From positions 74,093-119,232 of the forward strand of contig NW_005201298.1 in the NCBI RefSeq assembly GCF_000372725.1: a DNA stretch of 45,140 nucleotides. The letters run 5' to 3'. The position numbers and the translations under genes were made by a program. Under the pieces are notes generated by a model, which saw only the letters and a list, made by a program, of their open reading frames with translations, made no database searches and was not told the origin of the DNA. This document shows positions 100-45,140 of this stretch, piece by piece. Positions within the stretch are counted from its first letter, which is position 1. The number at the start of each line of letters is the position of its first letter. Source of the DNA: Emiliania huxleyi CCMP1516 (Eukaryota).

Positions 100-2728
100 G
101 GCCTCAACGCGCAGCTCTACTACCGCAACAAGGACCCGCGCGAGTGCGCCACCCTCGTCCGGACGTCGGGAAGCCAACCCGCTCCTCATTGCTCCTCATT
201 GGCTCCTGACTCATCACCGGCTTTAGGTACATCTCCCTCGTCCCGACGTCAGCACACACGGGCGAAGGGGTGGCCGACATCCTGATGAACCTCGTGGGCA
301 TGACGCAAAAGATGTTTGTGGACCGCATCATGTGGACGCCGATGGCGAAGTGCCGCGCCGACCTCCGCGACACGTCCGGGACACGTCCAGGACACGTCCC
401 GACAGGTGGACGCCGATGGTGCAGTGCACCGTACTCGAGGTCAAGGTGATCGAGGGGCTCGGCGCGACCGCCGACGTGACCCTCGCAAACGGGGCGCGGG
501 GCGGACACGCCCACGACACGTCCACGACATGTCCGAGACATGTCCTTAGGTGTGCCGCGGCTGCAGGCGGACACGTCCACGACACGTCCACGACACGTCC
601 GAGGCGTGTGCCCCCGTAGGTGATCCTCGCCAACGGCACTCTCAAGCGCGGGGACCGGATCGTCATGTGCGGCTTTGGCGGGCCGGTCGTCACGCGCGTG
701 CGCGACCTGCTCACGCCTCGCCCGCTGCGCGAGCTGCGCGTCAAGGCCGACTACCTCCACCACCAGGAGCCCGACCGCCCCTCCCGGCTGCTCCCCTCGG
801 CTCACCTCGGCTCCACCTTGGCTCCTCTCGGCCTCCCCTCGGCTCCACTTCGGCTCACCTCGGCTCACCTCGGCTCACCTCGGCTCACCTCGGCTCACCT
901 CGGCTCACCTCGGCTCACCTCGGCTCACCTCGGCTCACCTCGGCTCACCTCGGCTCACCTCGGCTCACCTCGGCTCACCTCGGCCACCAGGAGATCGACG
1001 GCGCCGCCGGCATCAAGATCTGCGCCAACCACCTCGAGAACGTCGTGGCGGGCTCCGCCTGCCTCGTCCCGTTCAAGGACGTGCCGTACGACCTCGAGGC
1101 GCTCAAGCAGGACGCGACGGGCTCGTCTTCTTTTCTTTCTTCCAGCCGTGTTTTCTTTTCTGTAGGTGCTCAAGGAGGACGCGATGGGCGAGCTTGTAGA
1201 CAAAGCCGGCCGAGGCACTGCGGCGGCACGGAGGTGCAGATCGGTACCAAGTCATTCCTAGGCGACCTCAACGAGCTGCGGCCAAGGCGGCGACACGTCC
1301 ACGGCACGTCCACGACATGTCCGAGACGTGTCGGATAGGCGACCTCAACAAGCTGGCTAAGGCGGCGTCCGAAGTGAACGGCGGGCTCGGCGTCTACGCG
1401 ATGGCGTCGACCCTCGGCTCGCTCGAGGCGCGGCTCGGGCTCCGTACCGCACCTCCAGAGTACCGAACCCAGTGTGGGTTCAGTCCCGTGGGCGGTGCGG
1501 TAGGCGCTCCTCGAGTTCCTCAAGACGTCAAAGGTCCCCCGCCCCNNNNNNNNNNNNNNNNNNNNNNNNNNNNNNNNNNNNNNNNNNNNNNNNNNNNNNN
1601 NNNNNNNNNNNNNNNNNNNNNNNNNNNNNNNNNNNNNNNNNNNNNTATCCCCGTCGCGGCCACATCTCCCCACATCTCCCCACATCTCCCCACATCTCCC
1701 CACATCTCCCCATCCCCCCCACACCTCTCCCCCGCACAGATCCCCGTCTCTACCACATCTCCCCACATCTCCCCACATCTCCCCATCCCCCCACACCTCT
1801 CCCCCGCACAGATCCCCGTCTCCGCGGTCAACATCGGGCCCATCCACAAGAAGGACGTCATCAAGGCGTCCATCATGCACGAGTTCAAGCCCGAGTACGC
1901 CACCATCCTCGCCTTCGACGTGCCGCTCACAAAGGAGGGCGAGCTGCAGGCCAAGGAGTCGCAGGTCAAGGTCTTCACCGCCGAGATCATCTACCACCTG
2001 TTCGACCAGTTCACAAAGTACATGGCGGACGTGCGGCTCGAGCAGCAGGCAAAGGCGGCGACCACCGCCGTCTACCCCGCCATCTGCAAGGTCTCGTCGC
2101 CCGACCTAGCACACTTCCTCGACACTTCCTCGACACTTCCTCGACACTTCCTCGACACTTCCTAGGTCTCGTCGCCCGACCACGTCTGGTGCCGCGGCGG
2201 GGGAGGGGACCCGATCTTGCTGGGGCTGGCGGTGCAGGAGGGGACCCTCAAGAAGGGCACGCCGCTCTGCGTCGAGCGGCGCGGGCAAAAGGACCCCGAG
2301 ACGGGGCTGCAGGCCTGCAAGACACCGGGCCACCAGAGAACACGAACGGCCCCCTACGCCTGCGCCAGCGCACTCCTCTTTTTTGGGCGGGTAGGCCTAC
2401 CTCGACATCGGGCGCGTCGTCTCGATGGAGCCCGAGAAGGGGAAGCAGGTGGACGTCCTCAAGGCGGGCAAGTCTGCCGCGGTCAAGATCGACGCCGTCA
2501 CGTCGATCCAGTACGGCCGGCAGTTCGACCACACCTACCCGCTGTACGCGCGCGTGACGCGCCGCTCCATCGACGCGATCAAGGAGCTCTTCAAGGAGGG
2601 CGGAAGAGCTGGTGTGAACGGCGTCTCTTCACACTCACTGCTGTGAACAGGAGTTCTTCAAGGAGGACCTCTCCAAGGACGACTGGGCGCTGCTTCTCAA
2701 GCTCAAGAAGCAGTACGGCGTCATCTGA
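100..2728 (+). CDS. eIF5B: Eukaryotic translation initiation factor 5B (IF2 homologue), 3' part; 5' end lies outside the window
   Basis: Manual exons 100-143, 227-331, 406-475, 620-766, 991-1098, 1166-1187, 1339-1427, 1504-1533, 1812-2090, 2166-2312, 2395-2583, 2651-2728 join in one frame. They give eIF5B hallmarks [86 protein letters not shown] and RRSIDAIK. Stop TGA at 2726-2728. Confidence 0.95.
797..984 (+). repeat. Intronic 10-bp tandem repeat (CTCGGCTCAC)n
   Basis: Visible array inside eIF5B intron 767-990; the same unit occurs on the - strand at ~11898-11935 in another intron. Confidence 0.95.
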
Positions 2729-15547: not shown

Positions 15548-17893
15548 CGGCGGCGGCCCCGCGCCTCGGCGAGACGCTGCGTCGGCGCTGGGGGCCGAAG
15601 AGGTGATCGACTTGGAGGCGGCCAACGGGGTCGGTCTCGGTGCGAGCGGCAAGCCGCTGCTGCCGGGCGAGCTCGAGGCGAGGCAGCAGCGCAGGCCGAG
15701 TTGGGTTCGGGGCCAAGAGGCTTCGACGAGCTTTCCCGGAGCCCCTCCCTTAGCTCTCCCGTAGGCGCCGCTCGGCTGGGACACGGCCTGGCTTCGCGAG
15801 TCCAAGACAACGCGTGCATGACATGTACATGTGCATGACATGTACATGTCCCTAGGCGCCGCTCGCCTCGCACGTCCCTCGAGGCATGTCCACGACACGT
15901 CCACGACACGCCCACGACACGTCCGGGACACGTCCACAGGCGCAGCTCGTGGACGCTACGCGCGTCTCGATCGACCGAAGAGACTCCCGAGGAGCAGCAC
16001 TACCGCCTCGCGGAGAGCGCGTTTTGCCGCGGCGGAGGGGTGGCGGCGCAGATCGCAAGCATCGACTACCACTTCCACCCCGCTCTCGAGGCCGCGCTGG
16101 CAGAACACAAACCCCACTCGCGGGCAGAGGACGCGGCACAGGACGGGGCACACGCGCCAGTCCGCAGACACGGGGAGGAGCGGTAGTGACGCTCACCCCC
16201 TCCCAGAGAGCCATTCTGCGAGAGGCCGCCGTGTTCGCCCCGCTTGGCGGGGAGTCTATAAGCGACGACGGCATCAGGCGCGCTGGCACGCCAAGAAGGC
16301 GGACTACGACGCGACGTACGGCCCTGGCAACCACACCATCCTCTTAATTAACTATGAAGTGACTCTTGAGTGACTCTTCATTCACTCTTAATGAATAGGC
16401 AACCACACCATCCTCTTAATTAACTATGAAGTGACTCTTGAGTGACTCTTAATTAATTCACTCTTAATGAATAGACAACCACACCATCCTCTTAATTAAC
16501 TATGAAGTGACTCTTGAGTGACTCTTCATTCACTCTTAATGAATAGGCAACCACACCATCCTCTCAATTAACTATGAAGTGACTCTTGAGTGACTCTTCA
16601 TTCGCTCTTAATGAATAGGCAACCACACCATCCTCTTAATTAACTATGAAGTGACTCTTGAGTGACTCTTCATTCACTCTTAATGAATAGGCAACCACAC
16701 CATCCTCTTAATTAACTATGAAGTGACTCTTGAGTGACTCTTCATTCACTCTTAATGAATAGGCAACCACACCATCCTCTTCGCCTTCCACGGCACGCGG
16801 CAGGCAAACGTGCGCCCGATCCTGGCGGAAGGATTCAAGCTCTCCAAGGTCGAACTATTACTTAACCAACCATTCATTTATTATTGGTTACCTATTAATC
16901 ATCTCCAAGGTCGGCTCAACGACCGACCCGGGCTTCTACGGCGCGGGAATCTACTTTTCGGAGCAGCTGCAGATGTCGATGGGATACAACAGCGGGAGCG
17001 ACTCATCCTAGAAGCAGAGCACGGATTCTTGCATCCCAGCCAGCGCTCGAGAGGACACGTATTCAACGGTATTCAGCCGATTCCACTGTGGTTCACTGTC
17101 GCCCCTCGTATTCACGCGGCGCTCTGAAGACGCCGCACGAGACCGTCCTCCCGCCCTCATGTCGGCGTACTCACCCTGTAGGAACGACGGCATGTTCCTC
17201 TGTAAGCTCCTCGTTGGCAAGCCGTTCCTCGCGCCGCTGCAGCAAGGGCGAGGGCTTCAGGCGGGCTATACGAGCCACGTGTCGGACGCGAGCGGCAGCG
17301 AGGTGATCATGTTTGACGAGGCGCGAATTAACATCTCAATCACTCGTTAATTAGTTAGTTCATATGTTAATTAGCTCACCATGTGTGACGAGGCGGCGAT
17401 GCTGCCGCTCTACTTCGTCTTTCTGCGCCCCCAGGGCGCCCACGGCCCTCTCGGCCACCATCATGGCCATCTTGGCCACGCTGCGGCGGCAGCGCACAAG
17501 GAGCCGCTCAAGGGTCTCGGCGGCGGCGGCGGCGGCGGCGGCGGCGTGTTGGGCGGCCTGGGCGGCTTGGGCGGCGCCATCGGTGGAGCGATGCACACGC
17601 TCGGCGGCGCATTTGGCCTGGGTGGCGCCTCATCGTCGTTGCCGGCCGCCGCCGTCGGGGCTGCCGCCGCTCTCGCCGGCGGCGGTGGCTGGGGCGCGGG
17701 CAACGTGCTGGGCGGCGGCAAGAGGCCGCGGGCGGACCACGACGCCGCGGTCGTGGCGCGGCTGCTGAGCGAGAGCCGTGGCGGCAAGGGCCGCCCGCGA
17801 GGGGCGGCCGGGCGCGCGGAGGGCGCGGAGGGCGCGGAGGAGGAGATGGTGCGCGAGGCGATGCGGCGGAGCTTGCTGCCGGGAGGGCGGTAG
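14976..17893 (+). CDS. FHA domain, PARP-type ADP-ribosyltransferase and C-terminal UIM-like protein (~600 aa)
   Basis: Exons 14976-15719, 15765-15811, 15940-16090, 16278-16326, 16763-16848, 16910-16995, 17182-17320, 17393-17893 are in frame. FHA: VVVGR...SISREH. ART: FAFHGT, ILAEGF, GFYGAGIYFS, MFLCKLLVG, SEVIMFD. UIM-like: EEEMVREAMRRSL. Confidence 0.85.
16327..16762 (+). repeat. Six tandem 72-bp units forming one intron of the PARP gene
   Basis: Units start at 16327, 16399, 16475, 16547, 16619 and 16691. Each begins (G/A)CAACCACACCATCCTC, the start of the next exon, and ends AATGAATAG. Confidence 0.95.
16996..17181 (+). mobile_element. Introner-like element, copy 1 (PARP gene intron)
   Basis: Shares CCTAGAAGC, CCCA.CCAGCGCTCGAGAGG, CGTA.TCACGCGG and CCGTCCTCCCGCCCTCATG blocks with introns at 19250-19505, 22768-22982 and 40663-40840. 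Confidence 0.7.
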
Positions 17894-18451: not shown

Positions 18452-21400
18452 TCAGCCCCTGTAGCGCGCAGCGGCCGCCGCCGCCACGGCGGCCGCGGCC
18501 GCGGCGGCGGCGGCGAGCGCAAGAGCGCCCGCCGACGGCGCCTGACTCCACGCCGCCACCGGGCCCTTGTCGGCGGCGCGCTTGGCCTTGTCCGAGAGGA
18601 TGGCGGCGGCGGCGCTGTCACGAGACGCCTTTGCGTTGCGTCGGCCGGCGCGCGATCACATGAGTATATGAGTAGCAGTCCCAGACTAGCAATACTCCCC
18701 AGACGCCTTTGCGTTGCCCGGCCGGCGCGCGAGCTTGAGGGCGCGCGCGTCGAGATGCGCCTCCACGTCGGCGATAGTGACGCCGGCGGCGACGCAGCGC
18801 ACGAGCGCGAAGAAGAGGAGGTCGGCGGCCTACCATTAATGAACAACTCTCATTAATTAATATTAACTGATATACCCGAGATGACCCGCGACTACCCGAG
18901 GTCGTCCTCAGTTTAAGGAAGAGGGGGTGGGCGGCCTCAGAGGCGATGTGGAGGTAATCTCGGGTGATCTCGGGTAATCTCAGGTAATCTCGGGTAATCT
19001 CGGGTAGTCTCGGGTAATCTCGGGGATTTCGGGGAGGAGGTCGGCGGCCTCAGAGGCGATGTCGTCTGGCTCCTCTGCCTCTGCCAGCTCCTGCGCCTAG
19101 ATGATCCGAGATGCCCCGAGATGCCCCGAGATGCCCCGAGATGACCCTCCGCCTCTGCCAGCTCCCGCGAACCTCTTCCACAAGCTTGGAGCGGAGGAGG
19201 GTCGAGTCGTCAAAGAGCCGCTTGGTGTACGAGCCGGCCGGCGCCGAGCCTGCGGTGTGAGTGCGCCGGCATGAGGGCGGGAGGACGGTGTCGGGCAGAG
19301 TACTTGTGGCACCGCGTGAGTACGAGGGAGGCGAGTACAATGTGCACAGCGGAGTGCGGCCGAGTACGGCGGAGTCCGTGTCGTCTCGAGCGCTACCGGG
19401 AGCACAAGAACACGGCTCCGCTCCTCCCCGCTGCCCCTGCTCACGAGATATGGGGAGATACGGGGGAGATACGGGGAGAGATTCCGCTTCTAGGGGCCGC
19501 CGCGCCGCGCCGCGACTGCAGCGTCTCCTGCAGCGCGCGTAGGCCGCTCGGGAAGCCCCAGCACGTCAGCGTGCCTGCAGGGGCAGCACGAGACACTACT
19601 GACTGGCAGTGGCCCCACCGCATAGCATGACCCCCCCCCCCCCCCAGCAATGTCAGCGTGCCTCGGTGGCAAAAGGATGGCGGCGAGCCGTACTGGCGGA
19701 CAGTGAAGCGGAGTGCGTCGCCGTCGGAGTCGACGGCCACACGGCAGAGCCGCTGCCACGCGCCTACTCCCATCGACAGTCTCTTCAACCTCTGAACCTT
19801 CACTCGCGCGGCAGAGCCGCTGCCACGCGCCTACTCCCATCGACAGTCTCTTCAGCCTCTGAACCTTCACTCGCGCGGCAGAGTCGCTGCCACGCGCCTA
19901 CTCCCATCGACAGTCTCTTCAACCTCTGAACCTTCACTCGCGCGGCAGAGTCGCTGCCACGCGCCTACTCCCATCGACAGTCTCTTCAACCTCTGAACCT
20001 TCACTCGCGCGGCAGAGTCGCTGCCACGCGCCTACTCCCATCGACAGTCTCTTCAACCTCTGAACCTTCACTCGCGCGGCAGAGTCGCTGCCACGCGCCT
20101 ACTCCCATCGACAGTCTCTTCAACCTCTGAACCTTCACTCGCGCGGCTGAGCCGCTGCCACGCGCCTACTCCCATCGACAGTCTCTTCAACCTCTGAACC
20201 TTCACTCGCGCGGCAGAGTCGCTGCCACGCGCCTACTCCCATCGACAGTCTCTTCAACCTCTGAACCTTCACTCGCGCGGCAGAGTCGCTGCCACGCGCC
20301 TACTCCCATCGACAGTCTCTTCAACCTCTGAACCTTCACTCGCGCGGCAGAGTCGCTGCCACGCGCCTACTCCCATCGACAGTCTCTTCAACCTCTGAAC
20401 CTTCACTCGCGCGGCAGAGTCGCTGCCACGCGCCTACTCCCATCGACAGTCTCTTCAACCTCTGAACCTTCACTCGCGCGGCAGAGTCGCTGCCACGCGC
20501 CTACTCCCATCGACAGTCTCTTCAACCTCTGAACCTTCACTCGCGCGGCAGAGTCGCTGCCACGCGCCTACTCCCATCGACAGTCTCTTCAACCTCTGAA
20601 CCTTCACTCGCGCGGCAGAGTCGCTGCCACGCGCCTACTCCCATCGACAGTCTCTTCAACCTCTGAACCTTCACTCGCGCGGCAGAGTCGCTGCCACGCG
20701 CCTACTCCCATCGACAGTCTCTTCAACCTCTGAACCTTCACTCGCGCGGCAGAGTCGCTGCCACGCGCCTACTCCCATCGACAGTCTCTTCAACCTCTGA
20801 ACCTTCACTCGCGCGGCAGAGTCGCTGCCACGCGCCTACTCCCATCGACAGTCTCTTCAACCTCTGAACCTTCACTCGCGCGGCAGAGTCGCTGCCACGC
20901 GCCTACTCCCATCGACAGTCTCTTCAACCTCTGAACCTTCACTCGCGCGGCAGAGTCGCTGCCACGCGCCTACTCCCATCGACAGTCTCTTCAACCTCTG
21001 AACCTTCACTCGCGCGGCAGAGTCGCTGCCACGCGCCTACTCCCATCGACAGTCTCTTCAACCTCTGAACCTTCACTCGCGCGGCAGAGTCGCTGCCACG
21101 CGCCTACTCCCATCGACAGTCTCTTCAGCCTCTGAACCTTCACTCGCGCGGCAGAGTCGCTGCCACGCGCCTACTCCCATCGACAGTCTCTTCAGCCTCT
21201 GAACCTTCACTCGCGCGGCAGAGCCGCTGCCACGCGCCTACTCCCATCGACAGTCTCTTCAGCCTCTGAACCCTCACTCGCGCGGCAGAGTCGCTGCCAC
21301 GCGCCTACTCCCATCGACAGTCTCTTCAACCTCTGAACCTTCACTCGCGCGGCAGAGCCGCTGCCACGCGCCTACTCCCATCGACAGTCTCTTCAACCTC

Positions 21401-23813
21401 TGAACCTTCACTCGCGCGGCAGAGTCGCTGCCACGCGCCTACTCCCATCGACAGTCTCTTCAACCTCTGAACCTTCACTCGCGCGGCAGAGTCGCTGCCA
21501 CGCGCCTACTCCCATCGACAGTCTCTTCAACCTCTGAACCTTCACTCGCGCGGCTGAGCCGCTGCCACGCGCCTACTCCCATCGACAGTCTCTTCAACCT
21601 CTGAACCTTCACTCGCGCGGCAGAGTCGCTGCCACGCGCCTACTCCCATCGACAGTCTCTTCAACCTCTGAACCTTCACTCGCGCGGCAGAGCCGCTGCC
21701 ACGCGCCTACTCCCATCGACAGTCTCTTCAACCTCTGAACCTTCACTCGCGCGGCAGAGCCGCTGCCACGCGCCTACTCCCATCGACAGTCTCTTCAACC
21801 TCTGAACCTTCACTCGCGCGGCAGAGTCGCTGCCACGCGCCTACTCCCATCGACAGTCTCTTCAGCCTCTGAACCTTCACTCGCGCGGCAGAGTCGCTGC
21901 CACGCGCCTACTCCCATCGACAGTCTCTTCAGCCTCTGAACCTTCACTCGCGCGGCAGAGTCGCTGCCACGCGCCTACTCCCATCGACAGTCTCTTCAAC
22001 CTCTGAACCTTCACTCGCGCGGCAGAGCCGCTGCCACGCGCGCCAGACGAGTCGCCCTTCCGCCAGAGAGAGCGGCGAGAGCGGGACCAGTAGACGCCGC
22101 GGCCGGAGCGGAGCGCGGCGCAGACGGACTCCGCCGTCGAGTAGACGAGGCCTGAAGAATGAAGAATGCGGACCCCCTCTTGGTAACGAGCTCATTCATG
22201 GCTCGGGCCCCGTCGGCGAGGAGGCGAGGCCGAGGGCGACGCCGCCCTCCTCCTCCACCACCTATGGTGGTTGCACTCTTCCGCGTCGCAACCGCCTGTG
22301 ACATCCGTACCGCCGCCCTCCTCCTCCACCGTTGAGAGCAAGCCATCCGGCCGGTCGGACCGCACCGCCGCGGCCAGCGCCTGTGGACATGGCTGGGACA
22401 TGTCGTGGACATGTCACGGACATGTCGTGGACGTATCGCGGACATGTCGTGGGCGTGTCGTGGACATGTCGTGGGCGTGTCGTGGACATGCACATGTCGT
22501 GGACATGTCGCGGACGTGTCGCGGACGTGTCGTGCACATGTCGCGGGTGTGTCGTGGACCTGGCCGAGGGCATCTCGTGAGAGTGTGTGTGGTCTCCTCG
22601 TTGGAGCACCTATCCCCACACCGAACGTCTCGCGCATGCTCCCACTCCTACCCCTCGTGCCACTGCCCCTCTCCCCTTCTCGCCATTGATACGCGCCTGT
22701 CCCGCGTCGATCAGCTCTTCTCCGCCCGCAGGCGCCTCCGCAACGTCCTCCGCCCGCCGCCAGAAGCCTACGTTGTGATGTGAAAACTGCGTTGAGACGA
22801 CGCCGACGGGAGGGCGTGAAGACGGCAACTTGTGGCAGCGTACTCAGAGCACCGCGTGAGTACGGGTGGGGACGAAAGCAGCGAACACATCCGCATCCAG
22901 CGGCATACAGCCGAGTGCGTCTCCTCTCGAGTGCTGGTTGGGATGCATGAACACGTATTCCGCTTCTAGGGCCAGAGTCCGCCACTAACCGACGGCACCG
23001 GTGCGGCCGCGGGCGTCGGCGCCGCCACCCGCTCCGCCCGCCTCGGGAGGGGGCCGAGCGATGCCGGGGCCGCGAGGCCGAGGTTGAGGGCGTGGAGCTC
23101 GGCGAGCCTAACCAGTTGGGCTCGCACTGGTCGAACTTAATTAAATTCGTCCCCAAAGTCCGAGGGCGAGGGCGTGCACGCTCGGCGCGCCGGGCCAGGG
23201 AGGGGGAGAGCGACGCTCCGGAGACCACGACCAGCAGCCGGTCCGTCGCCGCGAGGCTGGCCGACACCCGCTTCAGCAGCGCCGCGTCCGCCGCCGCGTC
23301 TGGAAGGAGGAGAAGGACGCCGGCGGCGGCGCCGACGGTGTGGGGCCGCTCGCACTCGCGGCAACCGGAGCCGGTCTTGGCGGCGAGAGACTCGAGTGCG
23401 AGAAGGAGCTGCTCAGACGTCGTCTCGGCTGCAGGAGAGAGGACGACGAGCAGGCGCTCAGCGGGCAGCGCCGCGTCCTTGGCCGCCTGGCGCACTGCCG
23501 CGCACAGCTCCGCCGGAGGCGTCGCGGGGTCCGGAGTGAGCAGCGCGTACAGCGCTCCGGCATGAAGCCACTCCCGCGCCTTGGCCGCCTCGTCCAGCCG
23601 GAAGGGGCCGACCGCGCAGCCCGCGCTGCGCAAGAGCGCGACGCGGGCAGCCGACGGCGGCGAAGCGAGCTCGGCTTCGCTCAGCCAGCAGACGAGGCAG
23701 CTGCCGAGGCCGAGGCGGCGGAGCACCTCGTCGTCGCTCTCGCCGGCCGCCTCGCCCTTGATGAGAGGCGAGAGGGACTTCGTGCGGAGGTCAACCACTG
23801 GCCAGAGCACCAT
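18452..23813 (-). CDS. hisIE: Bifunctional phosphoribosyl-AMP cyclohydrolase / phosphoribosyl-ATP pyrophosphatase with a His4-like N-terminal extension (~534 aa)
   Basis: Exons 23813-23191, 23107-22983, 22767-22697, 22380-22330, 22261-22231, 22151-22044, 19763-19662, 19574-19506, 19249-19173, 19096-19049, 18829-18707, 18628-18452 are in frame. Motifs: SDRPDGLLSTVV, LGLVYS, YWSRSRRSLWRKGDSSG, DSDGDAL, FCHRGTLTCW, GSYTKRLF, KLVEEAQEL, EAADLLFF. Confidence 0.92.
19250..19505 (-). mobile_element. Introner-like element, copy 2 (hisIE intron), with an inserted 10-mer repeat
   Basis: - strand: CCTAGAAGCGGAA...AGCGCTCGAGACGACAC...CTCGTACTCACGCGGTGC...CCGTCCTCCCGCCCTCATGCCGGCGCACTCAC..CAG. Confidence 0.7.
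19764..22043 (-). repeat. 34 tandem 67-bp units forming a 2280-nt intron of hisIE
   Basis: Unit on the - strand: GCGCGTGGCAGCG(A/G)CTCTGCC-GCGCGAGTGAAGGTTCAGAGGTTGAAGAGACTGTCGATGGGAGTAG. 2280 = 34 x 67 + 2, and the units are nearly identical. Confidence 0.95.
22768..22982 (-). mobile_element. Introner-like element, copy 3 (hisIE intron)
   Basis: - strand: CCTAGAAGCGGAATACG..TGCATCCCAACCAGCACTCGAGAGG...CGTACTCACGCGGTGCTCTGA...CCGTCTTCACGCCCTC. Confidence 0.7.
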
Positions 23814-36828: not shown

Positions 36829-37935
36829 GGTGTTCGTCGGAACCAACGCCGGCTCCTTGAATCTCACTCTCATCTCCCCCGTCGACCCTCGTCCCCGAGG
36901 CACCTGATAGATACGCTGTCGCAGGAGCCTCTCGTCGGTGCCCGCTCACGTGCCGGCACCACGCCAGAGGTACCTTCTCGCATGACGCCCCGAGCCCAAT
37001 AGGAGGGCCAACTCTATCGGTGGCACCCCCTTTCATGTTAGCACTTTGTGGGGGAGTATTGGGCTCGGTTGGGCGCGTGTCGTGGATGTGTCCCACGACC
37101 CTTTTTTTTGGGCGTCTTTAAAATCCGTGTGTGAAGCTCACTGTGTGGTGGAGAGGAACACATCGAGTGGGGCTGAGGAAGCTCTTCGCTGGGTGGAAGG
37201 AGGCCCGGCCAGCCTTGAGGGAGTCGCGGAGGAGGAGGGATAACGCAGAAAAGCCGAAGCCCAAGGTCCGCGCTCCACAAACCCCCGAAACCCAAGGTCC
37301 GCTCCGCTCCGCGCTCTGCTGCGCCACTCACGGGGGTTAAATTTATTTGCGCCTGACGTCCGACGGCGCACTACTTGACGTCGGCCAATCTACTGAAGGC
37401 GCGCATCTTCCTCGCGCTGTTGCACATGACGAGCACTGAGTGACAGATAGACGCAGGTTGTGACGCGCTGTTTACGGTTTCCAGTATACATGGTTAAAGC
37501 GTCCATGCCATCCACTTTTACACACTTAAACCGACCAACCCCCCCAAAAGCCGTATGATATATAGAGAGAGCGGAAACGCCGCCCCTGTCTGATGCCGGG
37601 ACGACGAGCTGCTACACCCAGGAGAGCCGCCCTGCTCCTCCCTGGTTCTGCGGTCACACCACACACGCGCGCAAAAGTCGGGTGTCACTACTCAACTAGG
37701 CTTTAGCACGATAGCTCCTCTAAGCAACAATGGTCAAAACAATGGACATTGAATTCACAAAAACACACACCTGCCGAGGGCCCTCCACCTCCAGCCTCCC
37801 CAGCGCAGGAAACAAACGCAGCGAAATCAATAACTAGACAGTGGACATGCGAGAAACAGCTTCTTGATGGCATTAGACAGACAGAGAGCAAGAGTGAACC
37901 ACGGTAGAACTACCGCCGTCCAGAGCGGTGCCCGG

Positions 37936-38800
37936 CTAGAAGTTGGCGCGCTTGAGGATGATGTCAATGGCTTCCAAGGCGTTTGGCGTCTTCAATGCGT
38001 TGGCGACGTGTGTTGCATCGCAAGGGTAGTCTGGGGTGCAGTCGAACCAGATGGAGCCCGCGGCAGTTTTGCACTGCTTCAGAATCTTGACCGGGTCGAC
38101 ACTCTCTTCCGGGATGCCAGCTCCTGCAGCCACTATGGTCTGGATGACGTCAGTGCATGGATTAATGTGACGCATGTTGCAATTCGAGTAAGCGTCGCCG
38201 ACCGAGCGAAGGTTGGTCCAGCCCACGCCGACCGAGCGAAGGTTGGTCCAGCCCATGCTTGCCATGCTCCGGAACTTCTTCTCGCAGGTCTCATTGTCGA
38301 CTGCGTAAAGGAGGCTCTTGACATCCTTGAAGGCGCTGATGAAGCCCTGCTGCGAGAAGATCTGGTCGCAATCCTCATCGGTAGCGTACTCCGTGTCAAG
38401 GGCGACCGCATTGGTCATCTTGATCTTTGCCGACCAGTCGGATCGGGCGTTCCAGTACGGGGCGTTCCAATCCTTAACTGAATTTGACACTGCGAGCACG
38501 ACGACGGCCCAGCATGCTGGAGCGCCGTGATGTCCGACGTGGAAACCCCGATGTCAACAATCACGCCCTTGAGGCCCGTAGCCTTGATGGCAGCCCACGT
38601 CGCCTGGAGGTCATTCGGTTTCCCGCCCAGCCAGACGAGGCCAGAAGGAAGAAGGGAGTCCGAAGGGCTTGGCGGCGTTGGCGTGGCCGTGGCAGTAGCC
38701 GTTGTCCTGGCAGTACGTGCCCGAGCACTCGTCAGCGACTGGTGCGGCGAAGGCGAGGACAGCAAAAGATCCGGCGAGAACGAGCTTGGCGAGCATCATG
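37936..38800 (-). pseudogene. Secreted Cys-containing protein, apparently frameshifted
   Basis: Signal peptide MMLAKLVLAGSFAVLAFAA. Coding-like sequence passes through three overlapping frames (38611-38898, 38415-38765, 37936-38499) without evident introns. Confidence 0.4.
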
Positions 38801-39454: not shown

Positions 39455-41128
39455 TCACACGCTACACGTGCGGTGGGAGGGGGACCCAGTGTGGTCCAGA
39501 GTCCGCCGCGCGGTGCGTGCTGCGCGATAGGTCGTCGACGGTGAAGTCGACTCTCGCGCCAAGCACTCCGACTCTCGGGCCCCCCACTCCAACTCCGCTT
39601 CCAGCCGGTCGACGAGATCTCCAAAGTGCTGTCGCGGGAAGATGAGCCCGCGGCGCTCTGCAATCAGCTCGATGAGCTGCGGGCCGGCGAGCGGCGGCGA
39701 GGCCTGCTGCGGTACGTGCTGCGGCCCCTTTCCGCGCGAGAGGTGTCTGCCCGCGGCGACGCTCGGGTCGAGCGCGGCGATGACGGCGAGGCCATACAGG
39801 CCGAGCACGACGTCGACGAGGAGGGCCTTGTCCGCCTCGTGCGTAAAGTGGCCGTTGAACACGTTGACCGACTCCTCGATCCACCGCCGGCGGGACGAGA
39901 GCTGGGAGAGGGAGGAGTCAAAGACGTACATCTGCGCCGACCCGTTGATGGCCATGAACGCCCACTGCTCGAGTCGGCACCACCCGCGCTGCAAGTACGT
40001 GTCCGCGTCGACCTTGCAGGGCGGGCGCGAGTCCTGGTGGAGCGCCTCGGGAGCGCAGGCGAGGAAGTAGTGCGAGCAGGCGGCGTAGAGGGCGATCGAG
40101 CCGATCGCGAGCCGCTTGGTCGTCGTGTTCTCCTGTGGTACTGCGGCGGGGCGGCGAGGGCGAGAGGCGGNNNNNNNNNNNNNNNNNNNNNNNNNNNNNN
40201 NNNNNNNNNNNNNNNNNNNNNNNNNNNNNNNNNNNNNNNNNNNNNNNNNNNNNNNNNNNNNNNNNNNNNNNNNNNNNNNNNNNNNNNNNNNNNNNNNNNN
40301 NNNNNNNNNNNNNNNNNNNNNNNNNNNNNNNNNNNNNNNNNNNNNNNNNNNNNNNNNNNNNNNNNNNNNNNNNNNNNNNNNNNNNNNNNNNNNNNNNNNN
40401 NNNNNNNNNNNNNNNGGGGGGAGGGGGGCGGTAGCGCACTCGAGTGGTAGTCGAGCCAGATATGGAGCGACTCGGGGTCGAGGCCTTGCCTCGCGCAAAG
40501 CGCCTCGGCCGCCTCGAGGATGGCTGGGTAGTGCTGCGCCTTGGGGTCCGGGTGGTGGCGAGAGAGCCACTGGTGCGAGACAAACATGACGGGGAGGCCG
40601 GCTGCGAAAGCCACCGCCGACTCGACGGTGTCGCAGAAGCGGAGGGCACCAGCGTCGCGCGCCTTCGTCATGCACACGCCAGCATCAGGGTGGGAATGCG
40701 GTTTCGTGCGCGCATTCAAGCATCGTGTGATACAAATACAGCCGAATGCAGCCGAATACGGCCGAATGCAGCGGAGTGTGCGCCCTCTCGAGCGCTGGTT
40801 GGGAGACAAGAAGACGTGTTCCGCTTCTAGGACCGCGCGCCTCCTCGTACGAGACAAGGCGGCCCTGCTCGCGTAGCTTCGAGAGCGGCATCACCGCGAG
40901 CGGAAACTCGAGCGTCGTGACGCCCGTCACCGCCTGGCGGATGCGTCTGTCCTTCTCGGCGCTCTCTCGCTCAACCTAAGGTAAGGCAAGGCCAGGTCAA
41001 CTTCTCCGCACACACGAGGTGGTGGGGCAAGGGCCAAGCAGTCCCTCGCGGCCCCACGTCTAGAAGACAGGAGCCCCGGCATCAAAGTGCAAGGCCCGGT
41101 GCGCGTGGGTGAGCGGTGTGTGTGTGTG

Positions 41129-41186
<58 letters not shown>

Positions 41187-41274
41187 TGTGTGTGTGTGTG
41201 TGTGTGAGTGTGTGTGTGAGTGTGTGTGTGAGTGTGTGCGTGAGTGTGTGTGTGTGTGTGTGTGAGTGTGTGAG

Positions 41275-41338
<64 letters not shown>

Positions 41339-42270
41339 TGAGTGAGTGAGGGGGGGGGGTCGCGCTCGACCTCCGCGAGGCGCAGCAACCGACGGAGATA
41401 CACGCACCGCACGAAGGTCAGCAGGACGACAATGACACCGAGGGCGCAGACACTCGTGCCCGCGATCGCTGGCCACTGCTGCGGCACGCACCTGGGGAGA
41501 TGTGTCAGGAGATGTGGGGAGATATATCAGGAGATATGGGGAGATGTATCAGGAGATATGGGGAGATATGGGGAGATGTGGCCACTGCTGCGGCACGCAC
41601 CTCCCGTTGCCCGCGCTCGGCTTGTGGTACGCGAAACGGCAAGGCTGGCACTCGGCAGCCGGCAAGCGCCTGTCATGGGTAGGCGGGCCATCCTAGATAA
41701 CTCGATCACTGTTGACTTTGTGAGGGCGGCCGGCACGGCCGCACCACCCCTCTCACTGTACAAGGTGCGAGAGTGAGAGCGCCACGCAGAGAGGGTATCT
41801 CCGGACCTCACATAAGGCCTCCTCGAGCTGGCTAGAGGAGGTCGGTGGGAGGGAGAGGTGGAGAAAGAGGGACTTGGAGGTGTCCGTGTGTGTTTGCTTG
41901 CACGCGCCTCAGCGCTTCAAAGTCGACCTCGAAGCCGGACGCATCGTCCGCCCGGAAGGTCGGCTCGAGGTGCGCGCCGCAGCCGCACCCGCGACTTGGC
42001 AGCGGCACGAGCGGCGCCGGACACCGCGCGATGATCGTGCGCGTGTCAACGAGCGCGCCGTCGAGCAGCAGCAGGAGCGCGTGCGCGCCGACGAGCGGCG
42101 CGAGCACGGTTGCCTTGTACCGGCCGTCCGAGGCATAGACGACCGCCATGTCGTCGTGTGCACCGGAGGCGCTGTCGCGGACGAGGACGGTGAACGCCTG
42201 TGTTGCGTGTCCGACGGTCACTGTGCTATCGTGCGGCTTCGGGCCCGGGGCTGTGCTTTTGTGTGAACGC
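39455..42270 (-). CDS. Single-pass receptor-like protein: filamin/Ig-like segment, Cys repeat, TM helix and HET-like cytoplasmic domain (partial, gapped)
   Basis: In order: DGRYKATVLAPLVGAHALLLLLDG (filamin-like); ECQPCRFAYHKPSAGNGR|CVP (ephrin-receptor-like Cys repeat); VCALGVIVVLLTFV-RCVYLRR (TM plus stop-transfer); FVSHQW..HPDP..IWLDYHS..PQ..YLQRGWCRLEQW (HET-like). Confidence 0.7.
40663..40840 (-). mobile_element. Introner-like element, copy 4 (receptor-like gene intron); repeated at ~42371-42486
   Basis: - strand: CCTAGAAGCGGAACACG..TCCCAACCAGCGCTCGAGAGGG..CACTCCGCTGCATTCGGCCG; the 3' half is more diverged. Confidence 0.65.
41116..41348. repeat. (GT)n/(CA)n microsatellite in intron 40976-41370; second copy at 42761-42880
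   Basis: Directly visible. Confidence 0.97.
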
Positions 42271-42370: not shown

Positions 42371-43399
<1,029 letters not shown>

Positions 43400-45140
43400 N
43401 NNNNNNNNNNNNNNNNNNNNNNNNNNNNNNNNNNNNNNNNNNNNNNNNNNNNNNNNNNNNNNNNNNNNNNNNNNNNNNNNNNNNNNNNNNNNNNNNNNNN
43501 NNNNNNNNNNNNNNNNNNNNNNNNNNNNNNNNNNNNNNNNNNNNNNNNNNNNNNNNNNNNNNNNNNNNNNNNNNNNNNNNNNNNNNNNNNNNNNNNNNNN
43601 NNNNNNNNNNNNNNNNNNNNNNNNNNNNNNNNNNNNNNNNNNNNNNNNNNNNNNNNNNNNNNNNNNNNNNNNNNNNNNNNNNNNNNNNNNNNNNNNNNNN
43701 NNNNNNNNNNNNNNNNNNNNNNNNNNNNNNNNNNNNNNNNNNNNNNNNNNNNNNNNNNNNNNNNNNNNNNNNNNNNNNNNNNNNNNNNNNNNNNNNNNNN
43801 NNNNNNNNNNNNNNNNNNNNNNNNNNNNNNNNNNNNNNNNNNNNNNNNNNNNNNNNNNNNNNNNNNNNNNNNNNNNNNNNNNNNNNNNNNNNNNNNNNNN
43901 NNNNNNNNNNNNNNNNNNNNNNNNNNNNNNNNNNNNNNNNGGTTCCTCCCGTCGCCTCTTCTTTGTTCGAATGTTTTTCAATCCATCCTTCACGAAGCCC
44001 TCCCATGTAGCTAGCGTTCTTGGCGAATGTCTCGAAATGGCCAGCAGGCGCTGTCTGCTCGCGGTCTGTGCGGGCCGCTCGTCCTCCTCGCCCTTCTTTC
44101 GTCCTCCCGTCCCTCCCCTCCACCATGGCCTTCTCGGCACTTCTTTCTCCATCCGCCTCGCCCTGCCTTTTCGCATCGTGCCGTTCGCCCTCCATTCGGT
44201 GACCTCCATGGCTGTCCGCCCCTTTTTGGGTGGCGCTCTCGATACGGTTGCGTCAACCTCGACGTCGCTGTCGCCCTCCCCGTCCCCGCCGGCGTCCGTG
44301 CCTCGGTTCGCGTCATCGGTAGCGTCTCCGTTGTTCCCTCGTGCCCCGCCGTCGCCCTCTCTGCTCGGGCCGTTAGCGATTTCGCTCCTCCTGCGTGTCG
44401 CCCCTCCGTCCCCTCCCCTTTCTTCGTCGTCATCGTCGCTGTCGCGAAAGCCCTCCGGTCCCTCGATTCCCTCGCCTATCCCCTCCGCTAATCCTGAGCA
44501 ACAATAAGCGACTGTACCACGGAGCACAGAGCGCAGCAGACAGGACGGCGGCGACGGCGGACATGGCAGAGACGAGTGTGAAACAAAGGGCGGCGGGCGT
44601 GGAGGGCGGTAGCGACGGGGATGGAGACGGTGACGGTGGCGAGGGAGAGGAAGGGGGTCCATTAACACCAGACAGCGAGAGGGGCAGGGAGGAAAGGGGG
44701 AGAGAGGAAGCCAACGCGACGTGCGCAGAGGATGAGGATATAAACTGGGACGACGCAGCGGAGGGGATTGAAGAATTTGATGGGCCTATCGGTGTTCTCG
44801 AGGTTCGTTATACCATCCCATCCCTCCCTTGGGTTGTCTGTTTTCTTTCTTTCTTTCTAGGTTCGTTATACCAAAAAGAGGGCTCGAGGTTCTCGAGGTG
44901 GATATCCTTTGGCCCTATCGGTGTGTATGAGTGTGTGTCTTGTCTTGTGGTTCTGTGTGTGTCGCTCCTGTGTGACCGTCATCGCCCGTTCTGCGTCCAC
45001 CCATACCGCGTTGGTGTCCCATCGCGCCGATCACATCAGCGGACCGACGGTGCGTCTGGACGCGCACTTTGCACTCCGGGTCCCAGACAGAGGCATCTCT
45101 CAAAGTGTCGCCGCATGGCCTCATCGGCCAGTCGTTCACC

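What the first reader, a model, noticed from the sequence alone, without database searches (positions are those of the whole stretch)
19764..22043. An intron made of 34 complete mini-introns (67-bp GC..AG units)
Seen: each unit is about 22 nt identical to the next exon start (GCGCGTGGCAGCG.CTCTGCCG) plus filler ending GGGAGTAG. Every internal junction therefore reads AG|GC, an acceptor followed at once by a donor. The array sits in the HisI catalytic region of a core biosynthetic gene. Inference: the boundary duplication seeded unequal crossover that amplified the whole intron. The 33 internal decoy acceptors imply either recursive (zero-length exon) splicing or strict selection of the last AG. 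Since 67 is not a multiple of 3, leftover units would shift the frame.
Basis: partly seen in the sequence, partly recalled or inferred. Interest (0 to 1): 0.85.

Follow-up and report, generated by a model that had tools for sequence, protein, structure and literature searches.

The report
Expanding array of whole tiny introns
An intron in a histidine-synthesis gene of what is likely a marine alga consists of 34 head-to-tail copies of one small intron. Its copy number appears to range from about one to over a hundred between samples, mature transcripts lack it entirely, and the cell likely cuts it out piece by piece.

Summary
Intron 6 of a HisI-HisE gene (minus strand, 22043-19764) is 2 nt plus 34 units of 67 nt, each GC..AG. 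Each unit begins with a 22-nt copy of the next exon's start.

RNA contigs from two studies join exon 6 directly to exon 7, and a third stops at the same junction. An independent metagenome and unit-unit junctions in DNA runs show the array is real.

New here: rough depth ratios suggest about 1, 14-19, 34-60, 55-58 and over 120 units in five DNA runs. This makes it a variable-number repeat whose unit is a whole intron. The seed is not a one-off: 7 of 11 introns of this gene start with a copy of their own next exon (permutation p about 1e-5). A second GC..AG array (6 x about 72 nt) sits 3 kb away.

Stepwise removal is likely (0.55) but untested. Only contigs were available, and the RNA alleles' copy numbers are unknown. 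Ten literature searches found no such array. The scan noted a five-unit mini-intron array in another genome before.

The parts
18452..23813 (-). Host gene: bifunctional HisI (PRA-CH) + HisE (PRA-PH) protein with an N-terminal extension; model of 12 exons, 549 aa
   Evidence: Open frame in the model. 10 of 11 introns are supported by RNA contigs; intron 2 is inferred from the frame only. Pfam PRA-CH on exons 6 and 7. Full-length homologue P0058 is 50% identical and has both domains.
22044..22151 (-). Exon 6 (first half of the HisI domain)
   Evidence: PRA-CH E=1e-9, profile positions 2-36; PDB 1zps and 7bgm PRA cyclohydrolases
19764..22043 (-). Intron 6, 2280 nt, GC..AG; removed whole in RNA contigs
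   Evidence: X11 loose end at 19764 continues into exon 6 (table 7). X14 has 2 nt left out near 22037 and a loose end into exon 7 (tables 4 and 7).
22042..22043 (-). 2-nt leader (GC) holding the true donor; not part of the repeat
   Evidence: also present in the independent contig L002
19764..22041 (-). Array of 34 x 67-nt units, each GC..AG; 33 internal AG|GC junctions
   Evidence: unit-unit junction in DNA runs X7 and X2 (table 7) and in L004
22020..22041 (-). 22-nt intronic copy of the exon 7 start in unit 1 (seed repeat)
   Evidence: 22 of 22 identical to 19763-19742
19742..19763 (-). Start of exon 7, the other copy of the seed repeat
19662..19763 (-). Exon 7 (second half of the HisI domain)
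   Evidence: PRA-CH profile positions 39-66, E=3e-4; covered by RNA contigs X11 and X12
16327..16762 (+). Second intron-unit array: 6 units (5 x 72 nt, 1 x 76 nt), each ending AG; 5 of 6 start GC, unit 3 starts AC; in a predicted PARP-domain gene
   Evidence: Removing 436 nt leaves an open frame. The next exon has a weak PF00644 hit, E=0.003. No RNA was laid here.
18830..19048 (-). Intron 10 of the host gene: 113 + 106 nt halves with an internal AG|GC at 18936/18935 that copies the exon 10/intron 10 boundary
   Evidence: the whole 219 nt is skipped in RNA contigs

Best explanation
This is a tandem repeat of apparently variable copy number whose unit is one complete small GC-AG intron, likely amplified by slippage or unequal exchange between two 22-nt copies and likely removed from the pre-mRNA in several splicing steps. 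A single-unit intron (69 nt) flanked by the 22-nt direct repeat is already 1.3 repeat units, so misalignment adds or removes whole introns. Loss of the last unit would leave the 2-nt leader and shift the frame, which would set a floor of one copy. Each unit would carry a working branch point and acceptor, because a one-unit allele has nothing else. Each internal junction carries a donor (AG|GCGCGT) identical to the one used by intron 3 of the same gene. Under short-intron definition any unit could be cut by its own donor, or by the donor regenerated on exon 6, and nearly every order would end in the correct mRNA. Shown: array anatomy, exact removal in RNA contigs, unit-unit junctions in other samples. 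Estimated: copy-number spread. Inferred: amplification mechanism and stepwise removal.
For: Anatomy. Precise joining: X11 (study P5) and X14 (P7); the X12 contig (P6) leaves the stretch at the same base, 19764, with 46 further letters not shown. The joined spacing between the WxKG and DxD motifs is 11 residues, as in 120 of 121 homologues matching the pattern (of 155 proteins held). Real array: L002 and L004 from an independent metagenome break inside it, and L004 holds a unit-unit junction; junction loose ends occur in X7 and X2. Unit-to-flank depth ratios: X9 1.0-1.1, X2 14-19, X1 34-62, X7 55-58, X6 122-261. Donor competence: intron 3 starts CAG|GCGCGT and is skipped in X14. Functional introns of 68-87 nt occur in the same gene.
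Against: No intermediate was observed; all runs were contigs. The copy number of the alleles behind the RNA contigs is unknown, so correct splicing of a long allele is not directly shown. The tool warns that summed contig depth is no copy number. X1 may be the window's own sample. X9's unit contig is cut at both ends like a repeat, so some multi-unit molecules are possible. In the second array unit 3 starts AC, so strict unit-by-unit 5'-to-3' recursion cannot work there if that base is right. The internal donors lie in a predicted 10-bp hairpin, though its folding is not beyond shuffles. In animals the exon junction complex represses regenerated donors (PMC6224609, passages).
Confidence: 0.55

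Rival explanations
1. Same variable repeat, but removed in one step: the first donor pairs with the last acceptor because only exons 6 and 7 are defined as exons, and the internal AG|GC sites are silent decoys.
For: The predicted hairpin covers positions 2-26 of each unit. The dead donor in unit 3 of the second array requires skipping at least one acceptor. The true donor differs from the internal ones by its 2-nt offset.
Against: Each internal acceptor is nearly identical to the real one and is followed by the same 22 nt, so up to hundreds of near-perfect sites would have to be ignored. Hairpin z-scores of 0.18, -0.53 and -0.99 are unremarkable. The internal donor sequence works in intron 3.
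Confidence: 0.22
2. Long alleles splice poorly. Many transcripts keep some units as 67-nt pseudo-exons and are destroyed by nonsense-mediated decay, and the clean mRNA comes from a minority of molecules or from short alleles.
For: Every tested leftover of two or more units gives an early stop, so failures would be hidden in mature RNA. The RNA alleles are of unknown length. The HisI motif has Ser where 121 of 121 homologues have Cys, so selection on this domain may be relaxed.
Against: X6 shows one haplotype in its flank contig and still a unit ratio above 120. The exons are intact and nearly invariant between the window and L004. Wild-sample run X2 averages 14-19 units.
Confidence: 0.18
3. 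Assembly artefact: a single intron was multiplied by the assembler.
For: The exact number 34 is unverified, and one run (X9) has about one unit.
Against: Six unit variants occur in a non-random order. Unit-unit junctions appear in L004, X7 and X2, and unit depth is far above the flanks in 4 of 5 DNA runs.
Confidence: 0.03

Closest known systems
Recursive splicing at ratchet points / zero-length exons (Drosophila; S. pombe SPNCRNA.445)
   Same: An acceptor is immediately followed by a donor inside an intron, allowing piecewise removal (PMC2773006, passages; 10.1101/226894, passages).
   Different: Those are single or scattered sites in unique sequence, mostly AG|GT. Here there are 33 or more identical AG|GC sites at 67-nt spacing, made by repeat expansion and apparently varying in number between samples. 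Recursion is not shown here.
Intron gain by tandem genomic duplication, or by staggered-break repair with direct repeats
   Same: The intron is flanked by a direct repeat that supplies the splice site (PMC3443670, passages).
   Different: Here the copy is one-sided (the intron start copies the next exon, with unrelated filler ending AG), up to about 30 nt long, and present in most introns of one gene. It has then driven amplification of the whole intron.
Introners that take their 5' splice site from a target-site duplication
   Same: The insert carries the AG and the duplication supplies the GY donor (PMC9860276, passages).
   Different: Their duplications are 3-9 bp and the elements are dispersed. 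Here the duplication is 22 nt. The filler has no other copy in the window and none in viral contigs; a genome-wide search was not possible.
Intronic minisatellites (VNTRs); human examples overlapping a splice site are recalled, not read
   Same: 10-100 bp unit, variant units interspersed, copy number apparently differing between samples.
   Different: The unit is a whole intron with donor and acceptor, and the array is the entire intron.
Fungal stwintrons / complex intervening sequences
   Same: Intervening sequences built of several U2 intron units removed by consecutive reactions (PMC7138796, passages).
   Different: Those have two nested, non-identical units. Here there are dozens of identical head-to-tail units.

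Membership tests
Minisatellite / VNTR | Head-to-tail units of 10-100 bp | tested here: met
   67 bp x 34.3, 98% matches
Minisatellite / VNTR | Copy number varies between individuals or strains | tested here: met
   Depth ratios from about 1 to over 120 in 5 DNA runs. Rough contig-depth estimates, not counted alleles.
GC-AG spliceosomal intron | GC..AG ends and precise absence from mRNA | tested here: met
   Joined form in X11 and X14
GC-AG spliceosomal intron | Branch point and lariat | not testable with these tools
   Only a weak YTGA candidate about 25 nt before the AG
Recursive splicing (ratchet points) | Internal acceptor directly followed by a donor | tested here: met
   33 AG|GC junctions; the same donor hexamer is used by intron 3
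Recursive splicing (ratchet points) | Part-spliced intermediates or internal lariats | not testable with these tools
   Only assembled contigs were offered; they cannot tell n units from fewer
Introner (intron-generating transposon) | Similar copies dispersed at unrelated sites | tested here: inconclusive
   No other filler copy in the 45-kb window; 0 in viral contigs. The metagenome scan used the exon-derived 22-mer and returned only this locus plus 2 unrelated matches among 4 stretches. No whole genome is held.
Introner (intron-generating transposon) | Short (3-9 bp) target-site duplication | tested here: not met
   The duplication is 22 nt
Intron born by tandem genomic duplication | Intron start copies the next exon and intron end copies the previous exon | tested here: inconclusive
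   The 5' copy is present; no 3' copy for intron 6. Over 11 introns the 3' copy is best-matching in 1 of 11, p=0.06. Decay or replacement cannot be excluded.
HisI (PRA-CH) domain | Pfam PF01502 match across the junction | tested here: met
HisI (PRA-CH) domain | Cys in the D-C-D motif (recalled as a zinc ligand) | tested here: not met
   Ser here; Cys in 121 of 121 homologues matching the pattern

The most novel reading that the evidence does not exclude
In this alga most introns are born with a copy of the next exon's start, which makes whole introns behave as repeat units that can multiply into arrays of hundreds or vanish precisely. The spliceosome clears such arrays one 67-nt intron at a time. 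Natural alleles with 1 to over 100 identical ratchet points would then be a ready-made dose series for recursive splicing.
Probability: 0.45. Interest if true: 0.9.

Novelty: new variant of a known kind. Interest (0 to 1): 0.74.

Why it matters
Natural alleles that differ only in the number of identical, complete introns make a long-standing question directly testable: how does a spliceosome choose among perfect competing sites, and how far can recursion go? Whichever way it resolves is informative, either hundreds of sequential cuts or hundreds of perfect acceptors ignored.

The wider pattern, introns starting with a copy of the next exon, points to a local-duplication route of intron birth acting on most introns of a gene. 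It also gives a simple DNA-level route to intron amplification and precise loss. It may also contribute to wrong intron boundaries in algal gene models.

Tried and rejected
No whole genome is held, so paralogues of the gene and other copies of the filler could not be searched genome-wide.

The RNA contigs show no depth on the unit (X11 and X12; X14). This is uninformative: other introns are also uncovered, and a hole in contig cover proves nothing.

Hairpin masking of donors is seen in the predicted fold but is not beyond shuffles (z 0.18, -0.53, -0.99), so it is not counted as support for the best reading.

The filler had 0 matches in viral contigs. L001 and L003 are chance 22-mer matches with no alignment to the window.

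The exon-1 protein search returned only unspliced read-through gene calls of this same gene. The PDB search with exon 7 alone found nothing relevant.

The window-wide test of the intron-start copy outside the masked host gene and repeats had small numbers. At 10 nt there were 5 hits, versus 0 for the mirrored pattern and 0-4 for each of 12 control dinucleotides; at 8 nt there was no excess (7 vs 6); one locus is counted on both strands. It is suggestive only.

Other tandem arrays in the window (39-, 182- and 30-bp periods) were read and do not show a GY..AG unit phase.

Ten literature searches found no paper on a whole-intron repeat array or on exon-start copies in haptophyte introns. The library lacks most subscription papers, two wanted papers were not held, and no supplements were read. 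The genome paper's supplement may describe these intron features.
Full report
Observation. The window holds a 67-bp tandem array at 19742-22041 (34.3 copies, 98% matches). On the minus strand, in donor-to-acceptor phase, there are 34 units from 22041 to 19764. All begin GC and end AG, in six variants ordered ABBCAACDCCAEFBCCCCCCCCCCCCCCDCCCBA. The edge units (type A) carry the base found in exon 7.

Host gene. A 12-exon model from 23813 to 18452 gives an open frame of 549 aa. Exons 6 and 7 match Pfam PRA-CH at positions 2-36 and 39-66, and a later exon weakly matches PRA-PH. A full-length relative, 50% identical, has both domains. A close named homologue is from the haptophyte Prymnesium polylepis. 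The runs that hold the stretch are marine, synthetic or cultured.

Splicing outcome. Eight of the 16 runs that hold the stretch were laid, all as contigs. In transcriptome X11 one contig (depth 411) skips introns 7-11 and continues from 19764 straight into exon 6. X12 shows the same five joints and leaves the stretch at 19764 with letters not displayed. X14 runs from exon 6 into exon 7 and lacks the 2-nt leader, fixing the donor at 22043. The joined spacing between two conserved motifs is 11 residues, as in 120 of 121 homologues that match the pattern. The copy number of the alleles behind these transcripts is unknown.

Reality and variation of the array. A metagenome scan for the 22-mer returned 4 stretches: two unrelated, and two from one independent sample that run into the array from each side and break there. 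One of these holds a unit-unit junction. Junction loose ends also appear in X7 and X2. Unit depth over flank depth is 1.0-1.1 in X9, 14-19 in X2, 34-62 in X1, 55-58 in X7 and 122-261 in X6. The tool warns that summed contig depth is not a copy number, X1 may be the window's own sample, and X2 is a population mean. Even so, a spread of two orders of magnitude against single-copy flanks is best read as a variable-number repeat, from an ordinary 69-nt intron to possibly more than 8 kb.

Origin. The unit is exactly the distance between the intron's 22-nt copy of the exon 7 start and the exon itself, so misalignment between the two copies adds or deletes whole introns (inferred). Deleting the last unit would leave the 2-nt leader, a frameshift, which would explain a floor of one.

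The seed is typical of this gene. In 7 of 11 introns the first 35 nt match their own next exon better than any other; 0 of 100,000 permutations reach the score, and 6 of 10 still do so without intron 6. The three control pairings give p = 0.06, 0.49 and 0.22. Outside the gene the same pattern is seen at several sites, but the count is small. A second array at 16327-16762 (+) has six units of about 72 nt ending AG, five starting GC, each beginning with a copy of the next exon. Removing it leaves an open, weakly PARP-like frame. So this looks like a class of structure, not a single accident.

Mechanism of removal. A one-unit allele must splice with the branch point and AG inside the unit, so every unit would have a working 3' end (inference from X9). 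The internal donor AG|GCGCGT is the donor of intron 3, which is spliced in X14. Introns of 68-87 nt are normal in this gene. Under short-intron definition each unit is therefore a complete substrate, and removal by its own donor or by the donor regenerated on exon 6 converges on the right mRNA in almost any order. I give this 0.55.

Against it: no intermediate could be looked for. Unit 3 of the second array has no donor, so at least one acceptor must be skipped there if the base is right. The donors sit in a predicted hairpin, though not beyond shuffles. In animals regenerated donors are repressed by the exon junction complex (PMC6224609, passages). One-step removal gets 0.22, poor splicing hidden by decay 0.18, and artefact 0.03.

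Comparison. It works like ratchet-point recursion (PMC2773006 and 10.1101/226894, passages), but membership needs intermediates, which were not testable. Its seed resembles tandem-duplication or break-repair intron gain (PMC3443670, passages) and donor recruitment from target-site duplications by introners (PMC9860276, passages), but the duplication is longer and no dispersal was found. Fungal complex introns have two nested units (PMC7138796, passages). Passages of five further papers gave nothing on this structure; one notes that older gene models of E. huxleyi are often wrong at intron boundaries (PMC10290126). Ten searches of the held library found no report of a whole-intron repeat array. 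The scan's own notes include a five-unit array of 29-31-nt introns in another genome and a duplication-born intron in a euglenid; I checked neither.

Verdict. The feature is real, correctly described and richer than reported: a repeat of whole introns that appears highly variable in number, grown from a seed common in this gene. The splicing route is open and cheaply testable. New variant of a known kind; interest 0.74.

Noticed in passing
window 16327-16762 (+): Second array of whole GC..AG intron units (6 x about 72 nt) in a predicted FHA/PARP-domain gene. Unit 3 starts AC. There is no offset, so contraction to zero would be a precise intron loss.
   Followed up: partly
window 18629-23190 (-), introns 1-11: 7 of 11 introns begin with an exact or decayed copy (about 10-30 nt) of their own next exon start; 8 of 11 have GC donors; every donor follows a G.
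   Followed up: yes
window 18830-19048 (-): Intron 10 has an internal copy of the exon 10/intron boundary, giving two diverged GC..AG halves (113 and 106 nt); another possible zero-length-exon site.
   Followed up: partly
window exon 7, about 19725-19735 (-): The HisI D-C-D motif reads D-S-D; Cys in 121 of 121 homologues. The enzyme's cyclohydrolase activity may be altered.
   Followed up: partly
window 22043-21975 (-): A one-unit intron (69 nt) is a multiple of three and reads without a stop in the exon 6 frame, so retention would insert 23 residues. Protein P0006 reads into a diverged relative of this intron.
   Followed up: no
proteins P0007, P0009, P0010: These homologues leave the family sequence 3-4 codons after this intron's position, hinting at an intron about 11 nt downstream in other lineages (possible sliding or independent gain). 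Their DNA was not seen.
   Followed up: no
window 22829-22998 (-): RNA contig X14 keeps the 3' part of predicted intron 2 while introns 3-6 are removed.
   Followed up: no
window 2091-2165 (+), 41492-41600 (-), 44803-44860 (+), 15765-15855 (+): Further predicted introns whose start copies the next exon start; the first lies in an IF-2-like gene.
   Followed up: partly
window about 40735-41750 and 42381-43250: A duplicated segment next to N gaps (same repeats and the same 109-nt predicted intron twice); possibly an allele or assembly duplication.
   Followed up: no
window about 17007-17182, 19250-19500, 22830-22970, 40750, 42400: A dispersed element of about 100-180 nt recurs, in several cases inside introns, with very high depth in DNA runs; a possible intron-filling mobile repeat.
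   Followed up: no
window 37834-38553: A lower-GC, apparently intronless open frame on the minus strand with a 30-bp in-frame duplication at 38196-38255.
   Followed up: no
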